Source: an uncultured Actinomycetes bacterium
GTDB taxonomy: Bacteria > Actinomycetota > UBA4738 > HRBIN12
DNA: 64,000 nt
Assembly (NCBI GenBank): GCA_963704885.1
Contig: CAVPIB010000001.1
Location: 896,001 to 960,000 of the forward strand
Direction of reading: 5' to 3'
Shown here: positions 34,961-39,992 of the stretch, piece after piece
How the letters are laid out: each line of letters begins with the position of its first letter
Numbering within the stretch: the stretch's first letter is position 1
Notes under the pieces: model-generated
What the model saw: only the letters and a program-made list of their open reading frames with translations
Told to the model about the DNA's origin: nothing
The model's database searches: none
Made by a program: the position numbers and the translations under genes

Positions 34961-36697
34961 CTAGAGGCCCGCGAACGGGTCGCCGTCGGCGTCGGTCGCC
35001 ACTTCCTCCTTCCTTGTGGCCCAGGGCGGGAAGGGGAACGTCACGACGAGCGGCACCGGGATGGCCGGCTGCGACACGACCATGGTGCCGGGCTTGAGCA
35101 GGCGCGCCCTCGCGCGTGTAGACGGCAGCATCCAGCCGTATTCAGCGCGCTCGGCCTCGGCGGCGTCCAGGCGTCCGCTCACGCGGATCGCGGCATTCTC
35201 CAGGACCTCTTGCGCGACCCGCGAGGCCGTCTGCTGCGCGCCGACGAGCAGCACGCCCAGCGACCGTCCGCGTTGCGCGATGTCGACGAGCATGTCCTTC
35301 AAGGGCCCGGTGCCTTCGCGGGGCGCGTACTTGTTGAGCTCATCGAGCACGAGCACCGAAAGGGGCAGCCGCTGTCCCGACTCCTCCTTCTCGCGGAACG
35401 TCTCGTTCAGGAGCGCGCCGACCACGAACCGCTGCGCCTGGTCGTGCAGCGACTGGATCGCCACGACCGTGACGCTCGCCTTCGAACGATCGATGCGGCG
35501 GCTCTCCCCGGCCTTCACCAGCTGGCCCATGCGCGCGGCGCCGGCGTGGAGTCGCCGCATGAACGCCGAGACGGTTCCGCCCATCACCCGGCCGCTCCAT
35601 GCCCAGTCCGGCTCGGAGCCGTCAAGCGGCTCCAGGAACTCGCCGAGCGCGTCGACCAGCGAGGGGATGTCCGTCACCGTTCGCTCACCAGGTTGCGCCT
35701 TGACCTGCTGGCCGCGCCAGTTGCCGTCAGGCGCGTCGCGCGGATCGCGGAGCACGACCGCGCCCGGCATCCCTGCCACATCGACCGCGAAGCGTTTCAG
35801 CTGGGCCTGCACGCGTTCGCGGATGAACGGGATCTGGTTGCGCTGGTCGTTCGCATCGGTCAGTAGGAACTGCAGCAGCTCCTCGTCCACGAACTCGCGC
35901 GGCGTCCAGCTGAAGACGTCCACGCCCTCTTGGCGACCGCCCGTGTCGGGGACCACGACGTCGCCCGAGCGCGGGCGGGGCGGCGCCCAGAACCTGACCG
36001 AGGGGAACGGCCCGGGCTCCACGCCGAGCTTGGCCCAGCCGGCCGCGGCGTCCTCGTCGAAGAACCGGTTCGGCTTGTCCATCCAAAGGAGGTCTTCGCC
36101 CTTCACGTTGAAGACGAGCACGCGCAGGTTCGCGGCGCCCTCGCCCAGCAAGGCCGGGTTCCCGGTGAGCATCCTCAGGAAGAACAACGCGAACGACGTC
36201 TTGGTCGCCACGCCGCTGATCCCGCTGATCGACATGTGCCCGCCCTTACGCCCATCGAAGAAGTCCAGGTCCACGCTCACCGGCTCGCCGTCACGCCCGA
36301 TGCCGATCGGCAGCGGCCGGCCCATCTCGTCCAGGTAGAGCGCCTTCGCGCGCTCGTCGCCGGTCGCGCGCTGCACGACCTCGCCTGGATCGGGCGAGAC
36401 CCACACCTCCGGGTCCACACGTGTGACTGCGACGCGCGCGGAGCGGACCTTGGCCGCCGGCATGATCCCGAGCTCGGCGACGCGGTGGGTGTCGGACTCG
36501 TACGAGGCTCCTTCGTAGACCGCCTCGGCCTCGGTGACCACGCCGTAGGTCCGGATCTCGCCCGCCTTGGGCACCTGCGTTCGGACGACCACCAGATCGT
36601 CCAGCTGGAGGAAGTCGTCGTCGTCCAGGACCACGCGGAACTCGGCCGTGGAGGCGTGCTCGGAGCCCAGGACGCGGCCGACGCCGTCGCCGGTCAC
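34961..36697 (-). CDS. herA: HerA-family helicase/ATPase
   Basis: N-terminal HAS-barrel-like region; HMSISGISGVATKTS (variant Walker A), FNVKGEDL, LDELNKYAP, RGRSLG, GAQQ. Confidence 0.88.
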   Translation of the reverse strand: MTGDGVGRVLGSEHASTAEFRVVLDDDDFLQLDDLVVVRTQVPKAGEIRTYGVVTEAEAVYEGASYESDTHRVAELGIMPAAKVRSARVAVTRVDPEVWVSPDPGEVVQRATGDERAKALYLDEMGRPLPIGIGRDGEPVSVDLDFFDGRKGGHMSISGISGVATKTSFALFFLRMLTGNPALLGEGAANLRVLVFNVKGEDLLWMDKPNRFFDEDAAAGWAKLGVEPGPFPSVRFWAPPRPRSGDVVVPDTGGRQEGVDVFSWTPREFVDEELLQFLLTDANDQRNQIPFIRERVQAQLKRFAVDVAGMPGAVVLRDPRDAPDGNWRGQQVKAQPGERTVTDIPSLVDALGEFLEPLDGSEPDWAWSGRVMGGTVSAFMRRLHAGAARMGQLVKAGESRRIDRSKASVTVVAIQSLHDQAQRFVVGALLNETFREKEESGQRLPLSVLVLDELNKYAPREGTGPLKDMLVDIAQRGRSLGVLLVGAQQTASRVAQEVLENAAIRVSGRLDAAEAERAEYGWMLPSTRARARLLKPGTMVVSQPAIPVPLVVTFPFPPWATRKEEVATDADGDPFAGL

Positions 36698-36723
36698 GAG
36701 GTCTCTGCGGCCGACGCTGTCAT
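36694..36723 (-). other. Leaderless 9-codon mini-ORF (MTASAAETS*) whose stop overlaps the herA GTG
   Basis: TACGAT (36731-36736)-7nt-ATG; GTGA overlap with herA. Could instead be a frameshifted herA N-terminus. Confidence 0.4.
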
Positions 36724-36831
36724 GACGCGTATCGTAGCCGCGCCTTCCGATGGCGGGGGAGTTTCGAGCCGGCGGGAGCTTGGTCGCCTCAGCCGCCGAG
36801 GCTCGCGCATCTTCGCTCGTCAGACAACCAT

Positions 36832-36868
36832 GGGTCGGATGGCCCCACTTGATAGGGCCGGCGAACCC
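36832..36868. promoter_or_regulatory. Tandem DosR-like boxes upstream of DUF1918
   Basis: GGGTCGGATGGCCC (36832) and GGGCCGGCGAACCC (36855) resemble GGGAC-N4-G(T/G)CCC. Confidence 0.5.
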
Positions 36869-36919
36869 TCACGGACGCCTTCGGGTATCCCTACGTTGGG
36901 TTCCGGGAGGTGTCTAGAG

Positions 36920-37123
36920 ATGAAAGCAAGCGTTGGAGATCGGATAGTCGTTCGCGGGCACCACGTTGGCGAATCCGAGCGGGACGGCGAGATCCTGGAG
37001 GTGCGCGGCCCTGATGGCGGCCCTCCCTACCTCGTCAAGTGGTCGGCGGACGGACATGTCGGGTTCGTGTTCCCAGGTCCAGACGTGACGATCGAGCACT
37101 TCGAGAGCCACCTGTCCCGGTGA
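36920..37123 (+). CDS. DUF1918 domain protein
   Basis: MKASVGDRIVV, GEILEVRGPDGGPPYLVKW, GH-x-x-x-VFPGPD; SD GGAGG. Confidence 0.9.
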   Translation: MKASVGDRIVVRGHHVGESERDGEILEVRGPDGGPPYLVKWSADGHVGFVFPGPDVTIEHFESHLSR

Positions 37124-37140
37124 TCGCGGTTACGCCGTGG

Positions 37141-38070
37141 CTATGAGGCTTCCGGCTGGCTGACGGCTTGCCGCAGGGCCCGGTAGACGAGGCCGGGGTC
37201 GCCCATGCGATGTCGGAGTTGGCGTTCGAGTGCACCGATGGGCACCAGGTTCTGCGGCGCGCGGGGATCCATGTGGGCCTCCGAGGCGACGACGGGCAGC
37301 ACCGCGGCCGTCCGGTCGGCGATCACGCGCACCTCCTCCTTGGGGAGCTGGCCCGACGCCTCGCAGCGGACGATGCCGGTCCATGAATGGCCGCCTTGGA
37401 GCATGGCCAGACGCACGTACCAGGAGTAGCGCCGGTATCCCGCGATCGTGAACAGCGGCGTGCGCTGCCCGGGAGCGAGTTCGGCGATCACGGCGTTCTG
37501 CTCGGGTGGCAGGTAGGTGACGCGATGGCTCTTGATGTAGCCGACGACCGGCTTGGCCTCCAGCTCGTTCAGCGGCCCGTCGGCGATCACGAACGCATCG
37601 GCCGCGAGCACTGAGGCCGCCTCGCCTTCGGCCCGCCTCATCCGGGTGTGGAGCTCCTTCACCAGGTGGCCGGGGTCATCCGATGCCGTCGTGGTCGTCA
37701 GGTAAGGCGGCTCTAGGTCGACCACAGGCAGCTGCTCGGGTCGACCGCCCGCCAGAACGGCCCACCGCTCGACACGAACGTTCACGACTTCGGACCAGCG
37801 CTCCTCGCGGTCCCAGAGCGCCGCGCCCACGGCGAACGTTCCGCAGATCCCCGGGATCGGGCCGGCGATCGGATCGTCCAGGAGCAGGCGCGCATCGACG
37901 CGCCTCACACCATCAACGAACGCGATCCGGTTCGTGCCGTCGTCGGCGCCCTCGAGCGGCTCCCAATCCGTTACCTCGACCGTCGCGTCGATCGTCCCCT
38001 CGGCCGGGGCGAGCTGCTCGTCGAGCTCGAGGGGCGCGCCGTACTCGGGAGCCCATCCCTCGACGAACAT
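37141..38070 (-). CDS. nurA: NurA-family nuclease (bacterial type)
   Basis: FVDGVRR, IADGPL, GYIKSH, SWYVRL, DPRAPQNL-x-PI-x-ALE; context next to herA-sbcD-sbcC. Confidence 0.8.
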   Translation of the reverse strand: MFVEGWAPEYGAPLELDEQLAPAEGTIDATVEVTDWEPLEGADDGTNRIAFVDGVRRVDARLLLDDPIAGPIPGICGTFAVGAALWDREERWSEVVNVRVERWAVLAGGRPEQLPVVDLEPPYLTTTTASDDPGHLVKELHTRMRRAEGEAASVLAADAFVIADGPLNELEAKPVVGYIKSHRVTYLPPEQNAVIAELAPGQRTPLFTIAGYRRYSWYVRLAMLQGGHSWTGIVRCEASGQLPKEEVRVIADRTAAVLPVVASEAHMDPRAPQNLVPIGALERQLRHRMGDPGLVYRALRQAVSQPEAS

Positions 38071-38077
38071 CCGCGCC

Positions 38078-38671
38078 TCACCAGCCGAGGACGTCTTCGT
38101 CTCCCTCGAGCTGCACGCCTAGACCGTCGGCGAGTCGGTTCACGTAGGCGAAGTAGCAGGTGATCATGTTCGCATCCAGGATCTCGCGGTCCGTCAGACC
38201 CGCCCCTCGCATCGGAGCCAGGTCGGACTCGACCATGTTCCACGGCTCACGCGTGAGCTTGTCCGCGTAGTCGCAGATCGCCCGCTCGCGCGGTGTCAGC
38301 GGTGCCGTCCGATGATCTGCCTCGAGCGCCGCCGCGAATCCCGGCCGGCGCCGATCCGTCATGCGGGCCAGACCGGCCGCGTGATGGCGTAGTCAGTAGT
38401 GGCACGCGTTCACCGCAGAGACGACGACGCCGATCATCTCCCGTTCGGGCCGGCTGAGATCGCCCTTGCCGTGCATCAGCGTCCGATAGAGGCGGGAGTG
38501 ATCGCGCATCGTCTCCGGATGGAGACTGTGGATGGCCAGGATGTGATCCACGGTGCCGGTCTTGGCCGTTCGCATCTCGTCGTACAGCTCGGCGAGCTCC
38601 CCTTCGGCTTCCGCCTCGGGGATCACTTCGATCCAGGCCGGCCGATGCTCGGGCGAGGGGTCCTCGTTCAT
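38078..38671 (-). CDS. AhpD/CMD-family peroxidase-related protein with in-frame UGA (CHY-U): probable selenoprotein
   Basis: LSRPEREMIGVVVSAVNACHY-TGA-LRHHAAGL continues in frame into ICDYADKLT, GLTDREI, YFAYVNRLADGLG. The TGA at 38393-38395 takes the place of the second Cys of CxxC. Confidence 0.88.
38356..38387 (-). promoter_or_regulatory. Bacterial SECIS element
   Basis: CCAUCACGCGGCC-GGUCU-GGCCCGCAUGACGG hairpin. GGU CUG are codons +7/+8 after the UGA, the same loop and spacing as E. coli fdhF. Confidence 0.8.
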
Positions 38672-38697
38672 CGGGCGCCATCCTCGCACACCCTTCT

Positions 38698-39439
38698 TCA
38701 GACGGGCTCTTCGATCGACGAGACCACCTTCCAACCCGACGACCCTTCGAAGACGAGGACTGAGATCCTGGTTGCGCTCGGACAGCAATGGGCATCCCCT
38801 TCCGCGAATACGGCTTCACGGATCTCCAGACCGATCGGGTCGGTGGACAGGTCGATCGTCGTGTCGCAGGTCTTCTTCTTGAAGACGGTCGCGTTCGCCG
38901 CAAGATCGATCACGCGCCACCTGCCGCACGCCCCGGAACCTCCCGGTGTCCTCGAACGTCAGTGCATCAGGCGATCCATCCCCGGTCGCGTCGCCGATGA
39001 TCGCACGGATCTGGATGACCCCGCGCTGCGGCGGGTCGCGCAGTCCGAACAGGGGACGCCACGGCGATGACTCTCCGGGGAAGCGTCGCCATACGACGAG
39101 GCCGTGCTCCCGTCGGAACGGGTCGGTGCCAGGGTCCACCCAGGCGACCAAGATCGACGACCCTGCCGACGTCTCCGCGAACCAGACGTCCGTCACCGAC
39201 GTACCCCGTGGCACCAACGCCTCGGGCGGGACCTCGGAGGCCTCGACGTCTCGGTCGTAGGACGAGGGCGTGCCCGCCGTCACGCCGACCGGTTCAACCG
39301 CCGGGCTCGGCGACGAAGAGGAGGTTGGTGTCAACGGTGTCGGCGTCGGGGAGACGAGCACCGATGGGGACGGCTCGGCCTCCCCGCTGCACGCGGCGGC
39401 CAGCACGACGAGCGCGGTCGCCCATATCACCCTCCGCAT
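38698..39439 (-). CDS. Lipoprotein (LppP/LprE-like, DAHCCPS motif); frameshift at about 38941
   Basis: Lipobox LAAAC; removing one G joins FEDTGGSGACGRWRVIDL...DAHCCPS; leaderless TAGGCT-6nt-ATG. Confidence 0.65.
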
Positions 39440-39476
39440 CGCCGCAGCCTAACGACGCCGACGTAGGATGCCCGCG

Positions 39477-39992
39477 ATGACCGCGCCCGCCCTCACACCG
39501 AAACCCGCGTCCCAGTCCCGGGTGACGCTCACACAGATGATGGAGGTCACCGACGCCAACGTGGCCGGCAACGTCCATGGTGGCGTGATCATGAGGCTCG
39601 TCGACACGGCAGCGGCCCTGGCCGCGATCCGTCACGCCGGCGGGTTGGCGGTTACGGTGTCCCTCGACGAGATGTCATTCCGGGAGCCCGTCCACATCGG
39701 TGACGTCGTGACGCTGCACGCCTCAGTGAACGACGTTGGAACGACCTCTATGGAGTGCGGTGTCCGCGTGGAGGCCGAGAACCCCATCAGCGGCCGTCGC
39801 GTGCATGCGGCGAGCGCGTTCCTGGTCTTCGTGGCGATCGACGGGGAAGGCCATCCGCGGCCCGTTCCGCCCCTGCTGGCCGAGAGCGAGACCGAGAAGC
39901 GTCGCCAGCGCGAGGCGAAGCTCCGCCGCCAGACACGCATGGCCCACAAGGAAACACTGAAAGCCGCGCGCGCCGCCGAACGCTCTGAGTGA
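39477..39992 (+). CDS. Acyl-CoA thioesterase (hot-dog fold, YciA-like)
   Basis: DANVAGNVHGG-x-IM-x-x-x-D, F-x-x-PV-x-IGD, VG-x-TSME, FVAID. Confidence 0.92.
   Translation: MTAPALTPKPASQSRVTLTQMMEVTDANVAGNVHGGVIMRLVDTAAALAAIRHAGGLAVTVSLDEMSFREPVHIGDVVTLHASVNDVGTTSMECGVRVEAENPISGRRVHAASAFLVFVAIDGEGHPRPVPPLLAESETEKRRQREAKLRRQTRMAHKETLKAARAAERSE

What the first reader, a model, noticed from the sequence alone, without database searches (positions are those of the whole stretch)
38078..38671. Hidden selenoprotein: AhpD-like peroxidase with CHY-UGA and an fdhF-like SECIS, sitting 7 bp upstream of nurA
Seen: the ORF track splits this gene in two, but both halves share a frame and are separated only by TGA (38393-38395) and ten sense codons: SAVNACHY*LRHHAAGLARMTD. 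The TGA is where AhpD/CMD proteins have the second Cys of CxxC. Seen: the next codons fold into CCAUCA-C-GCG-GCC[GGUCU]GGC-C-CGC-A-UGACGG, with GGU CUG at codons +7/+8. Established: E. coli fdhF has UGA CAC GGC CCA UCG GUU GCA GGU CUG, the same loop and spacing, and AhpD-like CxxU selenoproteins have been reported. Inference: this organism inserts Sec, which is uncommon in Actinomycetota. The stop lies 7 nt before nurA, suggesting a selenium redox enzyme co-expressed with, and possibly translationally gating, a DNA-break repair nuclease. An indel error would not create an in-frame TGA together with a correctly spaced hairpin.
Basis: partly seen in the sequence, partly recalled or inferred. Interest (0 to 1): 0.85.

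Follow-up and report, generated by a model that had tools for sequence, protein, structure and literature searches.

The report
AhpD-like selenoprotein gene beside nurA
The two short reading frames are one gene for a selenocysteine-containing AhpD-like antioxidant enzyme of a family known since 2005, and its position just upstream of the DNA-repair gene nurA is peculiar to this one genome.

Summary
On the minus strand, 38671..38078 is a single 197-residue gene. It has an in-frame TGA at 38395..38393 (codon 93, motif C-H-Y-U) and a hairpin with a GGUCU loop 18 nt downstream.

It is a real selenoprotein:
- One NCBIfam model, TIGR01926, spans the TGA.
- The TGA sits in the same column in 41 of 45 homologues found in 294 related genomes.
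- A Chitinophagales homologue and the solved structures 3c1l and 6k40 have Cys in that column.
- The genome carries tRNA-Sec, selA, selB and selD.
- The genome's FdhA-like gene has the same loop at the same spacing after its own Sec codon.

It is not new. AhpD-like CxxU selenoproteins (COG2128/TIGR01926) were described in 2005 and are listed in a 2026 review. Sec use is not rare in this lineage: selA was found in 271 of 294 genomes.

The link to nurA is not conserved:
- None of 35 homologue loci with at least 300 nt of downstream sequence has nurA there.
- None of 11 same-genus nurA loci has this gene upstream.
- In those relatives nurA has its own conserved promoter-like element and an extra first ATG. 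Here both are replaced by the 3' end of the AhpD-like gene.

Co-transcription with nurA is therefore likely in this genome only. Selenium "gating" of nurA remains speculation.

The parts
38078..38671 (-). AhpD-like (TIGR01926, CMD superfamily) selenoprotein gene: 197 residues plus a TGA stop, start ATG at 38671
   Evidence: Translation. TIGR01926 scores 142.9 bits (cut-off 81.8) over residues 12-187 = profile 1-174/178. PF02627. PDB 3c1l and 6k40 at E about 1e-27.
38393..38395 (-). Sec codon UGA (residue 93), second position of the C90-H-Y-U93 motif
   Evidence: Same column carries TGA in 35 of 38 homologue loci. Cys is there in L067, 3c1l and 6k40. A 91%-identical contig from another study keeps it.
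38356..38387 (-). SECIS hairpin. The upper stem-loop is 38363..38380 and the GGUCU loop is 38370..38374 (nt 22-26 from the U of UGA). The lower stem CCAUCA/UGACGG is shared only with the same-genus homologue.
   Evidence: Fold. Same loop and spacing in the genome's FdhA-like gene and in E. coli fdhF. Hairpins at this place in all homologue clades. The pattern occurs at 18 of 67,717 TGAs in the genome.
38078..38080 (-). True stop codon (TGA) of the selenoprotein gene
   Evidence: Homologues end at the same ...LGW with TAG (L025, L038) or TGA.
38071..38083 (-). Junction. GGUGAGG is a Shine-Dalgarno-like run overlapping the stop, followed by the 7-nt spacer GGCGCGG before the nurA ATG. Synteny with relatives breaks exactly here.
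   Evidence: Sequence. Homology to 11 same-genus nurA loci begins at GGCGCGG-ATG. The same-genus homologue of the AhpD-like gene has GGCGCGCGGAT after its stop.
37141..38070 (-). nurA (309 aa)
   Evidence: PDB 7f6d_H NurA at E 2.8e-23 and 1zup at 6.7e-10. No Pfam or NCBIfam hit.
36920..37123 (+). DUF1918 gene on the opposite strand, between nurA and herA
   Evidence: PF08940 at E 4.9e-29.
34961..36697 (-). herA (578 aa)
   Evidence: PDB 7f6d_B HerA at E 1.4e-118.
38698..39439 (-). Two overlapping upstream ORFs on the same strand (207 aa, possibly a lipoprotein, and 71 aa), function unknown. In two relatives they lie directly upstream of nurA.
   Evidence: ORF list. No family hits. Synteny in L078 and L079.

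Best explanation
38671..38078 (-) encodes one AhpD-like thiol/selenol oxidoreductase of the TIGR01926 'peroxidase-related enzyme' group. Its UGA codon 93 is decoded as selenocysteine. SelB carrying Sec-tRNA(Sec) binds the hairpin that starts about 13 nt after the UGA (loop GGUCU at nt 22-26) and delivers Sec to the ribosome.

The product carries the AhpD signature E78-x11-C90-x2-U93-x3-H97. By analogy with CxxC AhpD enzymes, the selenolate of U93 attacks a peroxide or an oxidised partner, and C90 resolves the intermediate as a selenenylsulfide. The physiological reductant and substrate are unknown.

Shown: gene unity, conservation of the UGA, Cys/Sec alternation, the decoding machinery, and a SECIS of the same type as the genome's FdhA. 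Inferred: actual Se insertion, catalytic roles of the residues, and peroxide defence.

The gene was joined to nurA by a rearrangement specific to this genome. It removed nurA's own promoter-like element, so the two genes are probably co-transcribed here. This is not a conserved functional module.
For: - One model across the TGA: TIGR01926 at 142.9 bits against a cut-off of 81.8, profile 1-174 of 178.
- TGA in the same column in 41 of 45 matches from 294 related genomes (31 of 35 without unpublished genomes), at 40-82% identity, with E-x11-C-x2-U-x3-H in 35 of 38 loci.
- Deltaproteobacteria and SAR324 MAG homologues also have CHY-U. A Chitinophagales MAG has CHY-C. Solved homologues 3c1l and 6k40 have Cys aligned to both C90 and U93.
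- tRNA-Sec scores 70.9 bits in Rfam and ARAGORN calls it SeC(tca). selA scores 493 bits and the adjacent selB 321 bits over its full length. selD scores 373 bits.
- The same genome's FdhA-like gene (SCNRT-U-HAPSVVGL) has GUGGUC-GGUCU-GGCCAC with the loop at nt 22-26, as here. That pattern occurs at 18 of 67,717 TGA trinucleotides.
- Each homologue clade keeps a hairpin at this place with a different stem sequence. Clade B has CCGGCGC-GGUCU-GCGCCGG, and two stem pairs are swapped on both sides relative to the window.
- The post-UGA window is more stable than the gene mean, with mean z -1.2 over 28 loci.
- Synonymous codon identity in clade B is 0.79 in the SECIS codons against 0.59 elsewhere.
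- A 91%-identical contig keeps the TGA, differs mostly at third codon positions on both sides, and has no change in 38355-38389.
- The terminal TGA aligns with TAG stops in homologues.
Against: - No direct evidence of Se insertion or of expression.
- The hairpin is thermodynamically unremarkable in this G+C-rich gene: z -0.72, and 36 of 176 other windows in the gene are as stable.
- The 66-nt fold prefers a competing pairing.
- Synonymous conservation in the window's own clade is only 0.586 against 0.511, rank 23 of 74 windows.
- RNAalifold found no common structure, because the stems sit in registers shifted by one base between clades.
- No Rfam match.
- Contigs at 99% or more identity did not cover the TGA itself.
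- The hairpin pattern used was defined after seeing the two genes.
Confidence: 0.93

Rival explanations
1. Selenium-gated nurA. Ribosome transit through UGA93 controls translation, or Rho-sensitive transcription, of the nurA gene 7 nt downstream, coupling a DNA-break nuclease to selenium or redox status.
For: The 7-nt spacer with an SD-like GGUGAGG overlapping the stop. nurA here lacks the promoter-like element and the first ATG present in 11 of 11 same-genus relatives (10 of 10 published), so it probably depends on upstream transcription. ATG 38070 is the first possible start of that ORF.
Against: The adjacency was found in no other genome: 0 of 35 homologue loci with at least 300 nt downstream, and 0 of 11 same-genus nurA loci. 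G006 has both genes on different contigs. nurA has its own SD-like site, so it can initiate independently. No expression data.
Confidence: 0.08
2. Broken gene: a nonsense mutation or pseudogene, or a sequencing or assembly error at 38393-38395.
For: The ORF track shows two pieces. Contigs at 99% or more identity did not cover the site.
Against: The same TGA column in 41 of 45 homologues from many genera and in another phylum. Third-position substitution pattern on both sides, and the TGA kept in an independent contig. Correctly placed SECIS and complete machinery.
Confidence: 0.01
3. UGA is read through or recoded by something other than Sec (near-cognate Trp or Cys insertion, or an alternative genetic code), or the locus makes two separate small proteins.
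For: None specific. The second ORF has its own ATG at 38362.
Against: The gene's own terminal TGA aligns with TAG stops in homologues, so TGA is a normal stop here. The ten bridge codons are conserved (..RHHA.GL..). The family is a single domain spanning both pieces. tRNA-Sec and selB are present.
Confidence: 0.03
4. The AhpD-like/nurA junction is a chimeric join made by metagenome assembly or binning.
For: The genome is a MAG of 20 contigs with 4.5% contamination. It holds two 98.6%-identical selD contigs. The junction is unique and sits on a 9-10 nt microhomology.
Against: A 151-nt contig from an independent assembly of a public run covers 38050-38200 with no differences. That is 28 nt on the nurA side, just short of the tool's 31-nt rule for bridging. 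Upstream genes (lipoprotein ORF, orf71, thioesterase) are the same as those next to nurA in G007 and G012, so both flanks belong to one syntenic region.
Confidence: 0.07

Closest known systems
AhpD-like selenoprotein family (COG2128 / TIGR01926, CxxU), first reported from the Sargasso Sea metagenome in 2005
   Same: Same NCBIfam model above its cut-off, same CxxU motif with Sec at the second position, and a SECIS directly downstream. The papers list 27 sequences in the Sargasso set (PMC1088965) and 299 in GOS as 'AhpD-like 1, COG2128, CxxU' (PMC2398784). A 2026 review table lists 'AhpD-like protein, TIGR01926, CxxU' (PMC13188914). Only passages were read.
   Different: This member is from an Actinomycetota MAG of sediment type. 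Whether members from this lineage are already catalogued (e.g. in BSepDB) could not be checked, because supplements and the database were not available.
Deinococcus radiodurans DR1765 AhpD-like protein (PDB 6k40) and Mlr4105 (PDB 3c1l)
   Same: E 6e-27 and 4e-27 over nearly the full length. The motif E-x11-C-x2-C-x3-H aligns with E78, C90, U93 and H97. According to the review PMC8945050 (passages), the DR1765 knock-out is H2O2-sensitive and complementation needs the CxxC cysteines.
   Different: Those proteins use Cys where this one has Sec. No biochemical data exist for the Sec form.
E. coli fdhF SECIS and the FdhA-like selenoprotein of the same genome
   Same: GGUCU at nt 22-26 after the U of UGA, and codons +7/+8 GGU CUG, in all three.
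   Different: Stem sequences differ. From the sequence, the E. coli element appears to close its loop one base earlier (six-base loop AGGUCU); the bulged U on its 5' side is recalled from the literature. The window's hairpin has a bulged C on the 3' side and only 4+2 upper pairs.
Mycobacterium tuberculosis AhpD (the AhpC reductase)
   Same: CMD/AhpD core domain (TIGR00778 at 35.9 bits, PF02627) and the E...CxxC...H signature. The signature, and the role of the second Cys as the nucleophile, are recalled from the literature and were not checked here.
   Different: Only distant similarity. No ahpC or Prx neighbour in the region examined (36.5-41 kb), and no evidence for a lipoamide-dependent partner.

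Membership tests
TIGR01926 peroxidase-related enzyme (AhpD-like, COG2128 group) | Full-length match to the family model above its curated cut-off | tested here: met
   142.9 bits against 81.8; residues 12-187 on profile 1-174 of 178, spanning the TGA
TIGR01926 peroxidase-related enzyme (AhpD-like, COG2128 group) | Active-site signature E-x11-C-x2-(C/U)-x3-H | tested here: met
   E78, C90, U93, H97. The same string is in 35 of 38 homologue loci (29 of 32 published). It aligns to CxxC in 3c1l and 6k40.
TIGR01926 peroxidase-related enzyme (AhpD-like, COG2128 group) | All-alpha AhpD/CMD fold | not tested
   No structure was predicted. Sequence similarity to five solved family members at E 3e-19 to 4e-27 makes it very likely.
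TIGR01926 peroxidase-related enzyme (AhpD-like, COG2128 group) | Hydroperoxidase or disulfide-reductase activity | not testable with these tools
   Needs an enzyme assay.
Bacterial selenoprotein (SelB/SECIS-dependent UGA decoding) | In-frame UGA aligned with Cys in homologues, with sequence conservation on both sides | tested here: met
Bacterial selenoprotein (SelB/SECIS-dependent UGA decoding) | Stem-loop immediately 3' of the UGA with G (GU) in the apical loop at the usual distance | tested here: met
   GGUCU loop at nt 22-26, identical in place to the genome's FdhA-like gene and to E. coli fdhF. A hairpin is kept in all clades. Energy alone is not significant. The general bSECIS criteria are recalled, not taken from a call.
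Bacterial selenoprotein (SelB/SECIS-dependent UGA decoding) | selA, selB, selC (tRNA-Sec) and selD in the same genome | tested here: met
   all above the curated cut-offs
Bacterial selenoprotein (SelB/SECIS-dependent UGA decoding) | Selenium actually incorporated at the UGA | not testable with these tools
   Needs 75Se labelling or mass spectrometry.
NF041238 AhpD_rel_CFYUT alkylhydroperoxidase-related (seleno)protein | Score above the curated cut-off (175 bits) and a 357-position architecture | tested here: not met
   54.7 bits, matching only profile positions 146-337. Not a member.
   0 of 35 homologue loci with at least 300 nt downstream have NurA. 0 of 11 same-genus nurA loci have the gene upstream.

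The most novel reading that the evidence does not exclude
In this one genome, a microhomology-mediated rearrangement (GGCGCGGAT) replaced nurA's own promoter-like element and first ATG with the 3' end of a selenoprotein gene. NurA synthesis would then depend on transcription through the AhpD-like gene. It might also depend on ribosomes getting past UGA93, either through termination-reinitiation at the 7-nt junction or by avoiding Rho polarity over the 315 untranslated nt when Sec insertion fails. Selenium or redox status would then tune a DNA-end-resection nuclease.
Probability: 0.08. Interest if true: 0.5.

Novelty: new member of a known kind. Interest (0 to 1): 0.27.

Why it matters
The practical point is annotation. 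Gene callers split this gene into two fragments, and the same will happen to its relatives (41 TGA-containing copies in 294 related genomes), so selenoproteomes of these sediment Actinomycetota are under-counted. The same SECIS loop and spacing occur in this gene, in the genome's FdhA-like gene and in E. coli fdhF, which suggests the element could be tested in E. coli. The family itself and its Sec form are already known, so nothing about selenium biology changes. The nurA junction is a small, genome-specific example of a repair gene losing its own promoter to an upstream gene.

Tried and rejected
- Rfam scan of 38000-38750 at E up to 10 gave only four chance-level hits and no SECIS family.
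- RNAalifold on 16 ungapped post-UGA segments gave no consensus structure, because the stems are in registers shifted by one base. I therefore read pairs directly from that alignment and did not run a column-wise covariation count or build a covariance model.
- My first DNA alignment contained three mis-cut sequences (L064-L066, my coordinate errors) and was not used.
- Pfam and NCBIfam gave nothing for NurA or HerA. A PDB sequence search identified them.
- The genome-wide scan for the hairpin pattern among TGAs with open frames on both sides found 4, against 3.3 expected by chance, so it is not a selenoprotein finder on its own. The two extra hits look like wrong-frame Arg/Pro-rich translations and were not followed.
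- Sequencing runs: no RNA holder was listed, and the best holder had 0.24 of the words. The contigs laid left 38206-38495 uncovered by the near-identical runs, so raw-read support at the TGA of this strain was not obtained.
- The promoter and terminator scan of 36600-39600 gave 0 promoters and 1 terminator-like site inside the DUF1918 gene, which is uninformative.
- The 'GC3' figures printed were computed on the wrong codon position and are not used. Overall G+C is 66.3% for this gene, 69.9% for nurA and 68% for the window.
- A look-up of earlier findings for this genome returned nothing.
- A phylum-wide selA census was not run.

Full report
**1. What is in the sequence**

The feature lies on the minus strand. 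The mechanical ORF list shows two pieces, 38393..38788 (-) and 38078..38362 (-). Reading 38671..38078 in one frame gives 197 residues. There is a single internal TGA at 38395..38393 (codon 93, context SAVNACHY-TGA-LRHHAAGLARMTD) and a terminal TGA at 38080..38078.

The ATG at 38671 is preceded by a GAGGA run. It matches where homologues and the family model begin (residues 5-12).

Seven bases (GGCGCGG) separate the stop from the ATG at 38070 of a 309-aa ORF.

**2. It is one gene**

NCBIfam TIGR01926 ('peroxidase-related enzyme') matches residues 12-187 on profile positions 1-174 of 178. The score is 142.9 bits against a cut-off of 81.8, straight across the TGA. Pfam gives CMD, PF02627.

Five solved structures of this group match at E 3e-19 to 4e-27. 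In 3c1l and 6k40, Cys residues align with both C90 and the TGA position. The AhpD signature E-x11-C-x2-(C/U)-x3-H is present as E78, C90, U93, H97.

**3. The TGA is conserved, not an accident**

A six-frame search of 294 related genomes found matches in 37 of them at E <= 1e-20. All 294 are listed as the same order. Of the 45 matches, 41 carry exactly one in-frame TGA and 4 carry none. Ten of the 41 come from unpublished genomes (G059, G062, G063, G078, G082, G285, G292). Without them the count is 31 of 35.

In my extraction of 38 loci:
- The TGA sits in the same column in 35. Of these, 31 have C-(H/Q)-Y-U and 4 are from a 30%-identical paralogue group with C-x-F-U.
- Three divergent copies have T-P-H-C and lack the Glu and His.

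Homologues in Deltaproteobacteria and SAR324 MAGs (53-54% identity) also read CHY-U. A Chitinophagales MAG (44%) reads CHY-C with the full E...C..C...H signature.

The gene's terminal TGA aligns with TAG stops in homologues, so TGA is an ordinary stop in this organism.

A contig from another study, about 91% identical, covers 38110-38498. It keeps the TGA, differs mostly at third codon positions in the same frame on both sides, and has no change in 38355-38389. Contigs at 99% or more identity did not cover the TGA itself.

**4. Decoding machinery**

The genome is 3.0 Mb in 20 contigs and 97% complete. It holds:
- tRNA-Sec (Rfam 70.9 bits; ARAGORN SeC, anticodon tca);
- selA (493 bits) next to a full-length selB (321 bits, profile 2-579 of 581);
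- selD (373 bits).

All are above their curated cut-offs.

**5. The SECIS**

Energy is not convincing in this G+C-rich DNA:
- z is -0.72 for the 44-nt fold.
- A 66-nt fold prefers another pairing.
- 36 of 176 other windows in the gene are as stable.

The comparative evidence is better.

(a) The genome's FdhA-like gene has the canonical Sec site SCNRT-U-H. Its hairpin is GUGGUC-GGUCU-GGCCAC, with the loop at the same nt 22-26 and the same GGU CUG codons +7/+8.

(b) E. coli fdhF, read from NC_000913, has GGUCU at the same position.

(c) A pattern of TGA, then 17-20 nt, then a G(G/A)U(C/U)U loop closed by at least 4 pairs, occurs at 18 of 67,717 TGA trinucleotides in the genome. The two homology-defined Sec codons both have it. 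The pattern was defined after the fact.

(d) Every homologue clade keeps a hairpin here with different stems. The window's clade has GCGG(C/U)C with loop (G/A)GU(C/U)U(G). Clade B has a perfect CCGGCGC-GGUCU-GCGCCGG. Clade D has GACCUC-CGUGAA-GAGGUC, shifted 6 nt. Clade C has a longer, less clear hairpin. Between the window and clade B, two stem pairs are exchanged on both sides (G-C/C-G), while the encoded residues change from AA..AR to RR..RR.

(e) Over 28 non-redundant published loci, the post-UGA window is more stable than the gene average, with mean z -1.2. Eleven of the 28 are in the top 10%.

(f) Synonymous codon identity in clade B is 0.79 in codons +1..+11 against 0.59 elsewhere. In the window's clade it is only 0.586 against 0.511.

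Only the upper stem-loop is conserved. The lower CCAUCA/UGACGG stem is shared only with the same-genus homologue.

**6. Mechanism**

SelB with Sec-tRNA(Sec) recognises the upper stem-loop and inserts Sec at codon 93. This is inferred from points 3 to 5.

The enzyme is a CxxU member of the AhpD/CMD oxidoreductases. By analogy, U93 is the attacking selenolate, C90 the resolving residue, and H97 and E78 the proton relay. The assignment of roles is recalled from work on M. tuberculosis AhpD and was not checked here.

The nearest studied relative is D. radiodurans DR1765 (PDB 6k40). According to the review PMC8945050 (passages), it protects against H2O2 and needs its CxxC cysteines. The substrate and reductant of the Sec form are unknown.

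**7. Comparison with what is known**

AhpD-like CxxU selenoproteins (COG2128) were introduced as a new family from the Sargasso Sea data, with 27 sequences (PMC1088965, passages). They rank fourth by number of selenoproteins in the GOS table, where 'AhpD-like 1' has 299 Sec and 902 Cys forms (PMC2398784, passages). A 2026 review table lists 'AhpD-like protein, TIGR01926, CxxU' (PMC13188914, passages). BSepDB uses the family as its browsing example (PMC13326102, passages).

This is therefore a new member of a known kind. The match to NF041238 is below its cut-off (54.7 against 175 bits), so it is not that family.

**8. 'Uncommon in Actinomycetota'**

selA is present in 271 of 294 related genomes and in 106 of 109 good-quality ones. 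The tally includes 23 unpublished genomes. Zhang et al. 2006 count Actinobacteria among three selenoprotein-family-rich phyla (PMC1794560, passages). Sec decoding is the rule in this lineage.

The AhpD-like gene itself is patchy. It is in 10 of 222 other genomes of the family and in 1 of 12 others of the genus at E <= 1e-20.

Its tree disagrees with taxonomy (published loci only):
- The window's copy pairs with one from another genus (82% identity; support 83/62).
- The same-genus copy (69% identity) sits with a third genus (96/90).
- Clade B groups with the deltaproteobacterial and SAR324 copies (98/96).

This fits transfer or differential loss.

**9. The nurA neighbourhood**

The downstream ORF is NurA (PDB 7f6d_H, E 2.8e-23). 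ORF 34961..36697 is HerA (7f6d_B, E 1.4e-118). A DUF1918 gene on the opposite strand (36920..37123) separates them.

The adjacency is not conserved. tblastn with NurA and HerA hit none of the 43 other AhpD-homologue loci. Of the 37 loci from the genome search, 35 have at least 300 nt downstream.

nurA was found in 18 of 25 relatives. None of the 11 same-genus nurA loci has the AhpD-like gene upstream. G007 and G012 have the same thioesterase, lipoprotein ORF and orf71 as the window, followed by nurA with a non-coding gap and no AhpD-like gene between them. The gap is 144 nt in G007.

All 11 same-genus loci (10 published, plus G008) share an element just upstream of nurA: a TAC(G/C)AT-like hexamer 7 nt before an extra in-frame ATG (M-A-R-M-F-V...). 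It looks like a -10 box of a leaderless transcript. That reading is my inference.

In the window, homology begins only at GGCGCGG-ATG, immediately after the AhpD-like stop. The same-genus AhpD-like homologue has GGCGCGCGGAT after its own stop. The join therefore sits on a 9-10 nt microhomology.

nurA has thus lost its own start region and probably rides on the upstream transcript, using the SD-like GGUGAGG that overlaps the stop. That supports 'co-expressed' for this genome only. It gives no support to an evolved selenium gate.

A 151-nt contig from an independent assembly covers 38050-38200 without differences. That is 28 nt on the nurA side, just under the tool's bridging rule. An assembly chimera is therefore unlikely but not excluded.

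**10. Verdict**

This is a genuine, mis-split selenoprotein gene with a canonical SECIS. The family is known, the lineage is Sec-proficient, and the nurA link is a one-off rearrangement. Interest is low to moderate.

Noticed in passing
G000:C4, about 59,077 (locus L084, nt 1729): An FdhA-like molybdopterin oxidoreductase with an in-frame TGA (SCNRT-U-HAPSVVGL) and a 6-bp hairpin with a GGUCU loop at nt 22-26. It is the genome's second recognisable selenoprotein and was used here as an internal SECIS control.
   Followed up: partly
Loci L069-L079 (same-genus nurA loci), about 45 nt upstream of nurA: A conserved element (gtcgcgtc, then about 12 nt, then TAC(G/C)AT, then 7 nt, then ATG-GCG-CGG-ATG) is present in 11 of 11 relatives and missing in the window. 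It looks like a promoter with a leaderless start, possibly with a regulator site.
   Followed up: partly
Loci L032-L035 (G007, G031, G026, G017): A second, 30%-identical AhpD-like paralogue group also carries an in-frame TGA, in a C-(E/V)-F-U-T-G-(A/S)-H motif, with its own hairpin. It is not present in the window's genome at E <= 1e-10.
   Followed up: no
Loci L029-L031 and a second copy in G281: Divergent copies have T-P-H-C in place of C-H-Y-U and lack the conserved Glu and His. They are a different active-site variant, not simple Cys orthologues.
   Followed up: no
G000:C20:5731-6654 and G000:C14:8433-9356 (L010, L011): Two selD copies lie on small contigs that are 98.6% identical over 3.16 kb. 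This is probably strain redundancy in the MAG and not a true duplication.
   Followed up: partly
Window 36920-37123 (+): A DUF1918 gene sits on the opposite strand between nurA and herA. In some relatives (e.g. L069) nurA and herA abut directly, and in others DUF1918 is present as here.
   Followed up: partly
Window 38698-39439 (-): A 207-aa ORF with a lipoprotein-like N-terminus overlaps a 71-aa ORF in another frame. Both are conserved in G007 and G012, and in G007 the match to the 207-aa ORF changes frame at residue 166. The true gene structure, or a frameshift, is unclear.
   Followed up: no
Locus L079 (G012 nurA): The nurA match is broken into several frames with one TGA, and herA is likewise fragmented. 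This is either a decayed nurA-herA pair or a poor assembly.
   Followed up: no
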